Shown: positions 20,373 through 43,126 of the stretch, piece by piece
Numbering within the stretch: the stretch's first letter is position 1
How the letters are laid out: each line of letters begins with the position of its first letter
Source: Ginglymostoma cirratum
Taxonomy: Eukaryota
Direction: 5' to 3'
Assembly (NCBI GenBank): GCA_024137785.1
Contig: JAHRHZ010000082.1
Span: 4,340,134-4,404,133 of the forward strand
DNA length: 64,000 nt
Notes under the pieces: generated by a model
Told to the model about the DNA's origin: nothing
Databases searched by the model: none
Seen by the model: the letters and a program-made list of their open reading frames with translations, nothing else
Position numbers and translations under genes: made by a program

Positions 20373-20479
20373 TCAGAGATAAAAGGTACTGATGAAGGGT
20401 CTAGGCCCGAAACGTCAAGTTTTCCTGCTCCTATGATGCTGCTTGGCCTGCTGTGTTCATCCAGCCCCACACCTTGTTA
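20373..20479 (+). mobile_element. Miniature Penelope-like insertion with target-site duplication
   Basis: Flanked by direct repeat tcaatggatagta (20360-20372 and 20480-20492); near-identical to 23375-23468. Confidence 0.8.
20389..20416 (+). ncRNA. Minimal type I hammerhead ribozyme core (Penelope type)
   Basis: CTGATGA-A-GGGT(ctag)GCCC-GAAA-CGTC; helix I partner upstream is disrupted by the inversion junction. Confidence 0.55.
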
Positions 20480-21590
20480 TCAATGGATAGTAGGCTGGTT
20501 TGTGAGGGCTGTGTTCATGACTATGTAGTTTTATGTGGTCTTGGGAAGAGCAGTTGCCATACCACGCTGTGATGCATCCAGATAGGATGCTTTCTATGGT
20601 GCATCTATTAAAATAGGTCCTTATGGACATGCTGAATTTCCCTGGCCTCCTGAGGACGTAGAGACATTGTTGTGCCTTCTTGACATTGCGTTGACGTGGG
20701 TAGACCAGAACAGATAGTTGGCAATCATCACTCCTAGAAACTTGACCCTGTCCACCTCAGCACCAATGATGCAGACAGAGGTGTGCACTCCACTGCGCTT
20801 TCCGAAGCGAATGACCAGCTCCTTCATTTTGCTGATGCTGATGGAGAGAGTAATATCTTTGCACCATGTTGCTAACCACTCAATCTTTTTCCCGTACTCT
20901 GTCTCAGCGTTGAGATCCGACCTACAACTGTGGCAAACTTGTGAATGGAGTTGGGTCAGAATATTGCCACACAGTTGTGAGTGTATGAGGAGTACAGTAG
21001 GGGGCTGAGTATGCAGCCTTACAGCCATTCATGATCCTACTTTGTGTTTGTAATCTGCTACGTTTTAATTTCCGACATTTTATTACCACTGTTAGGTCCT
21101 GCCAAACTATGCTTCACTCTTCCTTGGTAAAAGCTACAGTTTTTCAAACACTCTGTCAACACTGCTATGTAGCCCTGCCACTAGGAGGTTCTCATGAATG
21201 TCTGAAGTTGCATTTTTCCCATTCTTCATGGGGAGCTGCTGGATGGATATTTGTTCGAGACTTTGCATTTGATGACGCAGTGAAGGGTGGCAATTTTGGA
21301 ACAGAGATCATTCATCCATTATTTAGTTAACCCGAGGCTGATCTGTATTTGAGCTCTATTAACTCACCTCATTTCCCAACTCTTAATTTACATGCTGAAC
21401 AAAAATATTTCAATTAAACTTTGTGGGGAAAATCATTAGGGATATAAATTTGAACTCCATTGCTCCAGCATATTTTCATAGTGGCGTGATGGCGACTAAG
21501 ATAATTTTTACAAGTTTCCTCAATTTGAAGATTTCCGCGATAGGTACAAGTACTTTCTTTGGGAGGATTCTGTGAATTTCATTATCATTA

Positions 21591-21663
21591 TCATCATAGA
21601 ATCCCTACAGTATGGAAACAGGCCCTTTGGCCCAACAAGTCCACACTGACCCTCAGAGCATCT
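21591..21663 (-). mobile_element. HE1-type SINE 3' tail fragment
   Basis: catagaatccctacagtatggaaacaggccctttggcccaacaag matches 53855-53925. Confidence 0.8.
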
Positions 21664-21929
21664 CTTGTTGACTTTTCAAACATGGTATTAATGTGTTCAG
21701 TCTTCTTGGGAGGTTCAGTGCCTTTTCAGTAAATTTGTATCAAATTCATGTAAGCCCTGGATCTGAGTGAATTCTTATGATGACTTCATGATAAATTTGG
21801 GGACCTTTCCAATGGAGTCAATGCTGCACCAATGGCACATGTAGTAATGGAAATGAAGACAAGTTTCAGACTTGGCACTTGCATGAAATTTGGATTCTTC
21901 TAGTCATATTCTCTCATTTTAACCAAAAA

Positions 21930-22045
21930 TTACCAGAAATCTGATTTTTTAAAAAGAAAAATATGACATTTCCGCATATACACATAGGGGTTACCAGAAA
22001 TCTGATTTTTTTAAAAACATAACATTTCCGCATTTATACATAGGG
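21930..22045. repeat. Tandem duplication of about 58 bp
   Basis: ttaccagaaatctgattttt...acatttccgcat...acataggg at 21930-21989 and 21991-22045. Confidence 0.85.
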
Positions 22046-23326
22046 ACTTATAAACGGCAGAGCTGTAACAAAAGTAGCTGCACTGATGGCTGAATTCAGA
22101 ATGGCGCCAGAAATGTTTCTGCTTCTACCAGTTGGCAAAAAACACAGGAAATACAGTGAACATTGGGGAGAAATGAAATTAAAAACAGAGGTCTCTGGGT
22201 CAGCCAGTTCTGGATTGGCAGATGACTTTGGATTTGTGGTTGGCACTGTTGGACAACTCGTGAATCTGTGCTGGTTGTAAGGAACAAACTGTGATCAAAA
22301 ACCAGGATTACGTTTGCTGATTTCTCAGAGCACAGGGCAAGTGAAAACTGCAGAAAAAAAGGCACATGCAGAACAAGAGAGACCAAAAGAGTAATATCAA
22401 TATTTCAGCATAAATTCACTAAGAAATATCACAATGCTTAGTCCTATTTAGAAAGAACGACTTAGAAGCATTTTTATTGGAGCTGCAGGAGTTAGGAGAC
22501 TTAAGTTATGATTGGTAACAAAGGATAAAATCTCTATAAATGATCTCTGGTTGACAAGTTGTGAGGCTTAAGATCATCAGTAGAATCACTTGTTCTTAAT
22601 GGTTGGGAGAGATTCAAGGGTTTCCGGCACACTTTACATTTCAGTCAATCCTTTGTGCATTGTACCTTTTTAAATTTGAAGCTTTTCCTTCAATTCTAAG
22701 CTTGCTTTTGGGGGAACTTCACAATGTTAAAATATGAAAGCAGTGTCATTGAAAATGGACAACCCTACAAGTTTTACCTCTGATCCCAATATTTCGTCCT
22801 GTGTGCCTTAAACCCATTGCAGGTAGCACAGCACATGGCTCTCTCTGTTATCATCCTCACCCAGTCATTTGCTGCATTGCTGTGTGACCCCGAATGTGTC
22901 AGGCCAGGTGGAATGGGGTTACTGTTACATAAGAAACGTTTGGGACATGACTTTTCTCGACAGAAAATAAAACATTCATCCTAACCTCCCAAGAAGAATA
23001 TTTACACCTAACTTGCAGATCTTCAAATTGAAAAATCTTAGGTGAATTGTCCCAGTTGTCACCAGGCCATCATGAAACAAAGTTTTCAAACATGGTATTA
23101 ATTAGTTCAATCTTCTTGGGAGGGTCAGTATCTTTTCTGTGAATTTGGATTCAATATGTATAAGCCCTGGACCCAAGTCAGTTCTTAAAATAAATTACGT
23201 TATCTCGGATTCTCCAGCATCTGCAGTACCTTTTATCTCTGATACAATTTCAACCCCACTGCAAAGCCTCTTCTAAGGGTGCCTACCCTGAAGAAGTTAC
23301 CCTCCTCCCTCCGGACAAACCTCAGG

Positions 23327-23336
23327 NNNNNNNNNN
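23327..23336. other. Assembly gap (10 N)
   Basis: Run of n. Confidence 1.
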
Positions 23337-40800: not shown

Positions 40801-41180
40801 CAGTAGGGCTCAGTTACCCCACGTTCCTGTTTATTTAAATGCCCTCTCACCCTCAGGCTCACCACCAGAGACAGCAGAAGATTCCATTTGTGAAACTAGT
40901 TAAAGAAAGGAAGGCAGATGCTTTATGAAGGTATATTGATATATGGATAGAGAAAAAAAACGGTCACAGCTTTTCAAATCAATAGGAAGTGGTCTGTGAT
41001 GAATTCAAAAGATTCTATTTACGTAATGTAATTTAGAAGGAAAATCGGTTAATTATTTGAAAATGAATTTGAAATAGAAATACAAAAGGAATAGATTGGA
41101 GTCGATGCCTCCAATGAAGGAGCTGGGACTAGTACAGGTGCACTGGCTGAATGGCCTTCTGCCTGTAATTTCAATGAATT
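37850..41180 (+). mobile_element. Very old, fragmented CR1-type LINE with nested insertions
   Basis: Purine-rich degenerate endonuclease-like region at about 38090-38900, further pieces at about 39900-40180 and a tail at 40900-41180 (ggctgaatggccttctgcctgta). Confidence 0.4.
39120..39650 (-). mobile_element. LINE 3' fragment (CR1/L2 group, family distinct from HER1)
   Basis: ORF 39427-39633 (-) IEYSPLAWIGAVPTTLENLNIIQDKVAFLIG is RT C-terminus-like; tail homologous to 50915-51140. Confidence 0.75.
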
Positions 41181-41631
41181 TTGTCAACAAAGATAAGAAT
41201 AGATTGTAATAAACTGAGGATTTTTAACTTGCCCTTAATTATAATTTATTGTTAGTCGCCATTCAGTAGTATTCCGAGAGACTGAGAAGTGACCTTTTTG
41301 ATAAATCATCTCCAGTTGAACTGAGTCTCGAAGTGAAGGGCAACATGCCAGACTCCTCTGTGAAAGTACAGTAGTTGAATCAGTTTTATCAGTCATAAAT
41401 AAAGTACAGGGAATGTGGAGATTCTATCTTTTGTTATTCTTTTTCATCATACACAGAAGCCCTGAAACCTCAGTGGTTTCTTTTTCATGGTCTGTTTGCA
41501 ATTACAAGACATTTGTTTGAAAACCACTTTATTGCTTGGACTATGATAACTGAAGTATAGTCTAAAAGGAAATACGCTTGCGCACTCTTAAGAAACTGTG
41601 CTATTCAACTCTAACCTTATATTTTCTTCAG

Positions 41632-41757
41632 TCCCAGGATATTCCAGGTTTTCAAGCAGTTTGGCCTCCACTTTCCTCCCTATGAGCCACCTGGATCACC
41701 ACAGTAACAGCAACAATGTACTTTATGGCCAGCACAGGTTCTATGATACGCAAAAAG
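41632..41757 (+). CDS. BAHCC1: BAHCC1 coding exon B (126 nt, phase 1/1); not in the ORF track
   Basis: Acceptor atattttcttcAG (41630-41631), donor AAAG|GTtagt. Reads [42 protein letters not shown], in frame with exons A and C. Confidence 0.95.
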
Positions 41758-42695
41758 GTTAGTAAAGTATCTGGACAAGTATATGTATTTTAGATTTACT
41801 TTATAAAATAATAATGTCAATAATATCATCAAGCTTTAATTATGCTTTATTTCAATTTTACAGAAACCAACTCTTTTATCTATTGCGATTATGATGAATT
41901 ATTTGGGTAGTGGAATATAGTGTCTATCACTGTTAACCAGTCATGAGCCTAATTTTAGTCTGAAGTGCAGTACTTTGTTTTAATCAGAAATATTTGGCAT
42001 AAATATTATTGCTGCATATGTTTACTAAATAGTACTACTTCAGAGGCTTCTGTTTGCGACCTTGCATTTTACTATTTATTTCAAGTGAAATCCAAGAGGC
42101 ATTGGAAAGAAAATATGTAGTAAACATTGAAATTAGAGTTTAATCATCATATGTAGATTAATGATGTACCACATAGGGTGTGCAAGCTGAAATCAAGCTG
42201 GTGAATGTTTGTGCAAGGCTTTTAGCTAAATGCTATCCTGGTTGTTGTTATTGTCTTGGTGAGGTATTTTGAGCTCTCCATTAAGAGAACATTTTTATTA
42301 ACTTAAACAGTACTAAATGCCGTTGGTATGCATTACAATTCAATGCTGAGTGCCTCTGAAACACTCTGGACTTTTCCCTCCGTCAATTACCACTCTGAGA
42401 GGTGATTCATTCAAAAGTCCCCTCCTGGAATTGTTAGCCCACAGCAACCTAGCCAAATAACCATTCTTGACATGCATCTCTGGATGGTGGCAGGTTAATA
42501 AGCACTTTGCTTTAGATGGATGCTAGGCATTGCAGCCATACCCAAATGCCCAATTTTCTTCACACCAGAAGTTGTATTCTCTTCTTATGTAGAAACACCA
42601 AATCATAATTGAATGAAATAACAAGGTGTAGAGAAGGATGAACACAGCAGGCCAAGCAGCATCAGAGGAGCAGGAAGGCTGACGTTTCGGGCCTA

Positions 42696-43095
42696 NNNNN
42701 NNNNNNNNNNNNNNNNNNNNNNNNNNNNNNNNNNNNNNNNNNNNNNNNNNNNNNNNNNNNNNNNNNNNNNNNNNNNNNNNNNNNNNNNNNNNNNNNNNNN
42801 NNNNNNNNNNNNNNNNNNNNNNNNNNNNNNNNNNNNNNNNNNNNNNNNNNNNNNNNNNNNNNNNNNNNNNNNNNNNNNNNNNNNNNNNNNNNNNNNNNNN
42901 NNNNNNNNNNNNNNNNNNNNNNNNNNNNNNNNNNNNNNNNNNNNNNNNNNNNNNNNNNNNNNNNNNNNNNNNNNNNNNNNNNNNNNNNNNNNNNNNNNNN
43001 NNNNNNNNNNNNNNNNNNNNNNNNNNNNNNNNNNNNNNNNNNNNNNNNNNNNNNNNNNNNNNNNNNNNNNNNNNNNNNNNNNNNNNNNNNNNNNN
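42696..43095. other. Assembly gap (400 N)
   Basis: Run of n. Confidence 1.
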
Positions 43096-43098
43096 TTT

Positions 43099-43126
43099 CT
43101 GAAGAAGGGTCTAGGCCCGAAACGTC
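43099..43126 (+). ncRNA. Minimal type I hammerhead ribozyme core (Penelope type)
   Basis: CTGAAGA-A-GGGT(ctag)GCCC-GAAA-CGTC; the upstream helix I strand mostly falls in the gap. Confidence 0.6.

What the first reader, a model, noticed from the sequence alone, without database searches (positions are those of the whole stretch)
20389..43126. Three intact hammerhead-ribozyme cores on the sense strand of the BAHCC1 pre-mRNA
Seen: CTGA(T/A)GA-A-GGGT(n4)GCCC-GAAA-CGTC at 20389, 23375 and 43099, all on the + strand inside introns. Known: CUGANGA/GAAA/NUH is the hammerhead core, and Penelope-like retroelements carry minimal type I hammerheads with a palindromic helix III (here ACGU) thought to work as dimers. 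Inference: the copies at 20389 and 23375 are only 3 kb apart in one transcript and have identical downstream strands (aagttttcc), so they could pair through ACGU and cut the nascent intron. That could affect splicing of a 40-kb intron or release an RNA of about 3 kb. Caveats: helix I is only about 4 bp at 23375 and broken at 20389, and there is an extra A before helix II.
Basis: partly seen in the sequence, partly recalled or inferred. Interest (0 to 1): 0.7.

Follow-up and report, generated by a model that had tools for sequence, protein, structure and literature searches.

The report
Penelope hammerhead stubs in shark BAHCC1
These three motifs are recently inserted end-pieces of a jumping gene with over 65,000 such copies in this shark genome; they carry a known miniature self-cutting RNA motif that is likely inactive in this gene, so the finding is ordinary.

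Summary
The three cores are real, lie on the sense strand and sit in BAHCC1 introns. They are minimal type I hammerheads in the pseudo-LTRs of a Penelope-like retroelement (RT plus GIY-YIG, probably Neptune clade) with 65,616 exact copies of the 28-mer genome-wide. Three in 64 kb is near chance (P = 0.07). Copies 2 and 3 are absent at the orthologous sites of two related species.

The 3-kb dimer idea is not supported. Copy 1 has no helix I 5' strand, so a 1+2 dimer could cut only once and release nothing. Its active fold (-9.8 kcal/mol) loses to competing folds (-34.6). Copy 3 is predicted to pair with an 82-nt inverted arm. The extra A is a published hallmark of these ribozymes, not a defect.

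This scan has noted this element class before (77 findings, at least 14 genomes), including the main copy start just upstream of the core (46 of 137 copies here). One extra hint: genome-wide, copies start at the predicted cut site 1.1-2.2 times more often than just downstream and 2.4-5 times more often than just upstream. This may record rare cleavage of the element's own RNA in vivo.

The parts
908..1079 (+). BAHCC1 coding exon upstream of the 40.5-kb intron
   Evidence: tblastn of P0001, 100% over residues 66-122, followed by a GT donor
20360..20372 (.). Left target-site duplication of insertion 1 (13 bp, repeated at 20480-20492)
20367..20391 (-). Inverted piece of the element's tail, joined to the core by 3 nt of microhomology; it replaces the helix I 5' strand
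   Evidence: 96% match to the reverse complement of 23224-23248
20389..20481 (+). Copy 1: 5'-truncated pLTR; hammerhead core 20389-20416, predicted cut after 20416; no helix I
23199..23326 (+). Copy 2, 5' part: tail plus the element's 5' region with the presumed ORF start (GTG here, ATG in other copies)
   Evidence: 97.7% match to L032; same layout in several of L033-L042
23337..23468 (+). Copy 2, 3' part: element 3' end with an acceptor-like pyrimidine tract, 4-bp helix I, core 23375-23402, predicted cut after 23402
   Evidence: empty site in organisms B and C
41632..41757 (+). BAHCC1 coding exon between copies 2 and 3
42603..42614 (.). Left target-site duplication of insertion 3 (12 bp, repeated at 43226-43237)
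   Evidence: relatives' contigs join 42602 to 43226
42614..42695 (-). Inverted pLTR arm of insertion 3; complementary to 43112-43193, covering the GAAA, ACGU and cut site of copy 3
   Evidence: 97.6% over 82 nt; predicted duplex -168 kcal/mol
43096..43230 (+). Copy 3: pLTR with tail, second subfamily; core 43099-43126, helix I 2 bp
46866..48674 (+). Large BAHCC1 coding exon

Best explanation
The three motifs are hammerhead cores inside short, recent insertions of a high-copy Penelope-like retroelement (likely Neptune clade), and they are likely inert passengers in the BAHCC1 pre-mRNA. Shown: the core lies at the element's 3' end, downstream of RT and GIY-YIG coding sequence; copies end at two preferred points about 37 nt apart; insertions 1 and 3 have target-site duplications and inverted pieces; insertions 2 and 3 are missing in relatives. 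Inferred mechanism: the element's protein nicks the target and reverse-transcribes from internal sites at the tail. It usually copies through the uncut hammerhead and often stops 1-7 nt upstream of the core, probably the RNA's 5' end. A template switch often adds an inverted piece. The ribozyme likely works only in the element's own RNA, as a weak and probably protein-assisted dimer. In these intronic copies helix I is missing (copy 1), out-competed (copy 2) or zipped into a hairpin (copy 3).
For: 65,616 exact cores with no strand bias. Upstream sequence shared among copies for up to 1.5 kb encodes RVT_1 (E 9e-8, above cut-off, L012) and GIY-YIG (E 3e-4 and 9e-4, just under cut-off; L017, L021), with a C-x4-C-x2-C linker and C-x2-C before YIG visible in the translations. 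3' ends: 40 of 101 copies at +85-102 and 39 of 101 at +125-140. Target-site duplications of 13 and 12 bp. Empty orthologous sites: copy 2 in X2 and X16; insertion 3 in X2, X13 and X16. Helix I probability at most 0.004 in all 9 local folds; active 1+2 dimer -9.8 versus best co-fold -34.6 and separate folds -21.9 kcal/mol. Catalytic G5 is mutated in 379 otherwise exact copies, the same order as a non-core G (676, of which about 37 of 100 listed may be variants of the second subfamily). Papers report low activity even as dimers (PMC4209133) and no cleavage without the element's protein (PMC11167929).
Against: No cleavage assay and no RNA-end data were available. Nearest-neighbour energies ignore Mg-dependent tertiary contacts and proteins; an intact copy-2 homodimer also scores poorly (-6.3 versus -29.4), so these energies do not separate active from inactive cases well. 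A 3-kb spacing equals the natural spacing of tandem PLE hammerheads (PMC4209133). Core G5 changes are somewhat rarer than control changes (about 0.6-0.75 times for like-for-like substitutions, counted by eye from 100 listed rows each). Presence of copy 1 in relatives could not be tested because its flanks are repeats. No full-length element was found among the fetched loci.
Confidence: 0.9

Rival explanations
1. One reading: copies 1 and 2 pair through ACGU in the nascent transcript, cut twice, release about 3 kb and alter splicing of the 40-kb intron.
For: Cores intact, same strand, same intron; spacing like natural PLE tandems (PMC4209133); one productive core is topologically possible (core of copy 2, cut after 20416, 4-bp helix I).
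Against: The second cut has 0 bp of helix I; the active dimer is 25 kcal/mol above the best co-fold; copy 2 is absent in organisms B and C; local density is near the genome average.
Confidence: 0.03
2. Occasional incidental cleavage: an intronic copy with a 4-bp helix I (copy 2) is sometimes cut in trans by abundant element RNA bound to the element's protein, without any selected role.
For: Dimer topology allows trans pairing; protein-assisted cleavage is shown for Anolis Poseidon (PMC11167929); a modest excess of copies starts at the cut site.
Against: Helix II probability is at most 0.02 for copy 2 in context; expression of the element's protein here is untested; no reads began or ended at the site in Anolis RNA-seq (PMC11167929).
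Confidence: 0.06
3. The short copies are a separate non-autonomous family (retrozyme or SINE-like) with its own circular-RNA cycle.
For: Copy 2 has a permuted 5'-part/3'-part layout; a fixed start is common (46 of 137); retrozymes derive from PLE pLTRs (bioRxiv 10.64898/2026.07.22.740005).
Against: Junctions of the permuted units differ from locus to locus (L032-L042); starts form a continuum into the ORF (55 of 137 extend over 60 nt upstream); none of the three window copies is a tandem array.
Confidence: 0.08

Closest known systems
[quoted passage not shown]
   Same: [quoted passage not shown]
   Different: Helix II is 4 bp with a tetraloop, not the 7-8 bp of Schistosoma motifs. Copy number (65,616 exact; 88,892 with a free helix II interior) far exceeds the 4,000 and 9,000 given for coelacanth and Xenopus. 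No shark is named in the parts read; supplements were not opened.
EN+ Penelope-like elements, Neptune clade (PMC8557442)
   Same: C-terminal GIY-YIG with cysteines before YIG, linker zinc finger, 5' truncation, inverted 5' pieces, optional 30-40 bp tail.
   Different: No full-length copy or RT tree was obtained, so Neptune versus Nematis is not separated by phylogeny.
Poseidon of Anolis carolinensis, PAc (PMC11167929)
   Same: Hammerhead in the pLTR; two 3' end points defining a tail; most templates appear uncut.
   Different: In PAc the ORF starts in stem II; here the presumed ATG lies about 140 nt past the cut site. Here a modest excess of genomic copies starts at the cut site, whereas no RNA-seq ends were found there in Anolis.
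Domesticated intronic ribozymes (ultraconserved amniote intronic hammerheads; CPEB3 HDV-like ribozyme)
   Same: Ribozyme core on the sense strand of an intron.
   Different: Those are conserved across species (PMC7761336 passage; PMC10919898 search listing). These insertions are lineage-specific and lack a monomer-competent helix III.

Membership tests
PLE minimal hammerhead (min-HHR) | Intact CUGANGA, GAAA and NUH boxes | tested here: met
   All three copies
PLE minimal hammerhead (min-HHR) | Unpaired nucleotide between 9 and 10.1, G10.1-C11.1 pair, palindromic helix III | tested here: met
   Seen in the sequence; feature list from PMC4209133
PLE minimal hammerhead (min-HHR) | Helix II kept while its loop varies | tested here: met
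   Among 100 listed matches the loop varies widely and the closing pair is U-G or U-A; no two-sided compensatory change was seen (read by eye)
PLE minimal hammerhead (min-HHR) | Helix I of 4-5 bp | tested here: inconclusive
   4 bp in copy 2, 2 bp in copy 3, none in copy 1: met by the family, not by two of the three copies
PLE minimal hammerhead (min-HHR) | Self-cleavage as a dimer | not testable with these tools
   Needs an assay; only indirect counts of copy starts
EN+ Penelope-like element | RT followed by a C-terminal GIY-YIG endonuclease upstream of the pLTR | tested here: met
   RVT_1 above cut-off; GIY-YIG 21.6 and 19.9 bits against a 22.6 cut-off; order seen in L011 and L017
EN+ Penelope-like element | 5' truncation, inverted pLTR pieces, 30-40 bp tail, variable target-site duplications | tested here: met
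Neptune clade | CX2-5CxxC linker zinc finger plus CCHH in the endonuclease | tested here: met
   Motifs visible in translations of L017 and L021; the linker is shared with Nematis (PMC8557442)
Neptune clade | RT phylogeny groups with Neptune | not tested
   No reference PLE proteins were at hand
Domesticated intronic ribozyme | Conserved at the orthologous site across species | tested here: not met
   Empty sites for copy 2 and insertion 3; copy 1 not bridged
Non-LTR retrozyme | Tandem units of fixed length, each with a hammerhead | tested here: not met
   Single or inverted copies; variable junctions

The most novel reading that the evidence does not exclude
The genome keeps a fossil record of in vivo cleavage by a minimal Penelope hammerhead. 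About one in a hundred copies begins exactly at the predicted cut site because it was reverse-transcribed from cleaved RNA, while about a third begin at the uncut RNA's 5' end just before the core. That would be genomic evidence that these ribozymes cut in the germ line, and that cutting is a side path, not a required step of transposition.
Probability: 0.3. Interest if true: 0.55.

Novelty: new member of a known kind. Interest (0 to 1): 0.2.

Why it matters
For BAHCC1 it most likely does not matter: such insertions occur about once per 66 kb in this genome. The family matters as a sample. [quoted passage not shown] If the excess at the cut site survives a base-by-base analysis, it is indirect evidence of cleavage in vivo and gives a direct bench target.

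Tried and rejected
Rfam scan: no hammerhead family matched at E up to 10; this says little, since the motif is minimal. Sequencing runs: no RNA holder listed on record; all laid runs were contigs, which cannot show RNA ends. Orthologous state of copy 1: no listed contig bridges it. Full-length element: none among the fetched loci; no ORF of 250 aa or more on the strand of any 5' region found. Idea that the N run in copy 2 hides a full-length element: not excluded, but sister loci show short direct 5'-to-3' jumps, so a short unit is likelier. A-rich flank bias as the cause of the +29 excess: it reduces the ratio to +32 to 1.1 under an assumed worst-case composition but does not remove the step against +23 and +26. 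Lunse et al. 2017 (PMC5785218) was not held; only its title was seen.
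Full report
Observation. The 28-nt motif is present at 20389, 23375 and 43099 on the + strand. A looser pattern found 4 exact matches among 9 hits in the window, against 6.9 hits expected by shuffling; three are these cores and the fourth (53667, minus strand) has no helix II. Self-comparison shows the three lie in 93-135 nt repeats that are 86-96% alike, and reveals a fourth partial copy on the minus strand at 42614-42695. 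Rfam returned six weak, unrelated matches and no hammerhead.

Host gene. The long ORF at 46.8-48.7 kb is 97-98% identical to BAHCC1 of three carpet sharks. Exons map to 908-1079, 41632-41757 and 46866-48674, with further exons downstream. Copies 1 and 2 are in the 40,552-nt intron and copy 3 is in the next, 5,108-nt intron, all in sense orientation.

Chance. The genome (4.36 Gb) holds 65,616 exact matches, split evenly between strands, with 0 for the reversed control. Leaving the helix II interior free gives 88,892. The expected number per 64 kb is 0.96 and P(3 or more) is 0.074. The cluster is not special.

What the element is. In 30 oriented loci the sequence upstream of the core is shared for up to 1.5 kb. 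It encodes RVT_1 (L012, 32.5 bits, cut-off 29.6) and GIY-YIG (L017 21.6 and L021 19.9 bits, cut-off 22.6). The translations show a C-x4-C-x2-C linker and two cysteines before YIG. By the clade features in PMC8557442 (passages read) this excludes Penelope/Poseidon and fits Neptune or Nematis. Neptune is inferred because it occurs in vertebrates (bioRxiv 10.64898/2026.07.22.740005, part 1 of 5 and passages). Of 101 copies with an exact core, 40 end at +85-102 and 39 at +125-140, counting +1 from the first C of the core. This is the 30-40 bp tail that PMC11167929 (parts 1-2 of 4 read) traces to two internal RT start sites.

Anatomy of the insertions. Insertion 1 is an inverted tail fragment joined to the core, flanked by a 13-bp duplication and set inside another repeat. 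Insertion 2 is tail plus 5' region, a 10-N run, then the element's 3' end. Sister loci show the same 5'-to-3' jump at different junctions (L032, L033, L035, L037, L039, L040, L042), so these are separate template jumps rather than one fixed mini-element. Insertion 3 is a head-to-head inverted pair around an N run with a 12-bp duplication. Such layouts are standard for PLEs (PMC3846280 and PMC8557442, passages).

Age and conservation. Single contigs from organism B (X2) and organism C (X16) run across the site of copy 2 without it, with about 4% and 6% differences in the flanks. Contigs from X2, X13 and X16 join 42602 to 43226, skipping insertion 3. Copy 1 was not bridged. Over 92 nt, copies 1 and 2 differ by 1 base and copy 3 by 5 bases from their nearest of 70 distinct fetched copies. 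Catalytic G5 is changed in 379 otherwise exact copies, against 676 for a non-core G. About 37 of the 100 listed control rows may be variants of the second subfamily. Like-for-like substitutions, counted by eye, give a core/control ratio near 0.6-0.75. The core is thus not strongly protected after insertion, though mild constraint in source elements is not excluded.

Could they cut? The motif fits the min-HHR description in PMC4209133 (parts 1-2 of 4 read), where the unpaired base before helix II is listed as a conserved feature. That paper found no monomer activity and low dimer activity. PMC11167929 found cleavage only with the element's protein and no RNA-seq ends at the site. In a dimer, the core of one monomer uses its own 5' strand and the partner's 3' strand for helix I (established dimer model, recalled and consistent with Fig. 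1 legend of PMC4209133). Copy 1's 5' strand pairs 0 bp with any partner, so a 1+2 dimer can cut only after 20416. That dimer scores -9.8 kcal/mol against -34.6 for the best co-fold, in which the near-palindromic helix II regions pair with each other. Helix I probability was at most 0.004 in 9 of 9 local folds. Copy 3 is predicted to form an 82-nt duplex (-168 kcal/mol) with its inverted arm, burying GAAA, ACGU and the cut site. Against my reading: an intact homodimer also scores badly (-6.3 versus -29.4), so these energies cannot prove inactivity, and 3 kb is the natural spacing in tandem PLEs.

Where copies begin. I took the first 100 exact matches on contig C1 (70 of them fetched within 57 regions) and scored every copy with a downstream anchor. 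This gave 170 hits, 161 after removing duplicates, and 137 after dropping 24 limited by N runs or locus edges. The sample is biased toward intact cores. Of the 137, 46 start at -7 to +1 (5.75 per nt) against 6 at -60 to -8 (0.11 per nt). Of 18 starting at -3, 17 carry an extra T. Most templates were therefore copied through an uncut ribozyme. The likeliest reading is an RNA 5' end at an initiator-like sequence (consensus recalled); D. virilis Penelope has a pLTR promoter with an initiator (PMC2377424, passages). Earlier notes of this scan report the same start.

A smaller signal at the cut site. Genome-wide counts of main-subfamily copies whose match begins at a given base, after three non-consensus bases, were 95 at +23, 153 at +26, 635 at +29, the first base after the predicted cut, 237 at +32 and 274 at +38. 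Of 30 fetched +29 loci, 23 were true truncations by eye (25 by script) and the rest were indels in intact copies. At +38, 29 of 30 were truncations; +23, +26 and +32 were not checked. After correcting for flank composition under three assumptions, +29 gives 621-765 against 353-558 (+32), 378-484 (+38), 231-260 (+26) and 145-161 (+23). The 100 rows, read by eye, also show fewer starts at +21-27 than at +28-35. This fits a small cleaved fraction of templates, but only five positions and one subfamily were counted. RT pausing or A-rich microhomology are not excluded, and the extra T seen at the -3 class is not evident at +29. Searches listed no paper whose title or abstract start reports this or a shark min-HHR family. 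Lunse et al. 2017 and the supplements of PMC4209133 were not seen and may hold chondrichthyan examples.

Verdict. This is a new member of a known kind, already noted 77 times by this scan. Interest 0.2, mainly for the testable hint at the cut site.

Noticed in passing
window 23337-23351: Copy 2 brings an acceptor-like pyrimidine tract ending in CAG, 24 nt upstream of the core, in sense orientation. It is part of the family sequence and could act as a cryptic 3' splice site in host introns.
   Followed up: no
window 46100-46340, 11290-11380, 31130-31220: Pieces of a second repeat family with a similar layout, including a fold-back copy at 46133-46303; probably another Penelope pLTR family, with no intact hammerhead core found by the window scan.
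   Followed up: partly
window 9100-9423, 30049-30386, 45167-45520, 53851-54099, 63642-63977: Five copies of a roughly 330-bp SINE-like repeat, 69-77% alike.
   Followed up: no
L022, L015/L016 and rows: Some inverted insertions place the complement of the 3' strand directly before the core, which could give a long helix I. These copies, rather than the window's, are the best candidates for incidental activity.
   Followed up: no
G000 C1 copies starting at -3: 17 of 18 carry a T where long copies have A, which may be a non-templated dA added to the cDNA end or a bias for T-rich targets.
   Followed up: partly
window about 20050-21050: Insertion 1 sits inside a decayed high-copy repeat that looks like a LINE fragment on the minus strand (family not tested).
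   Followed up: no
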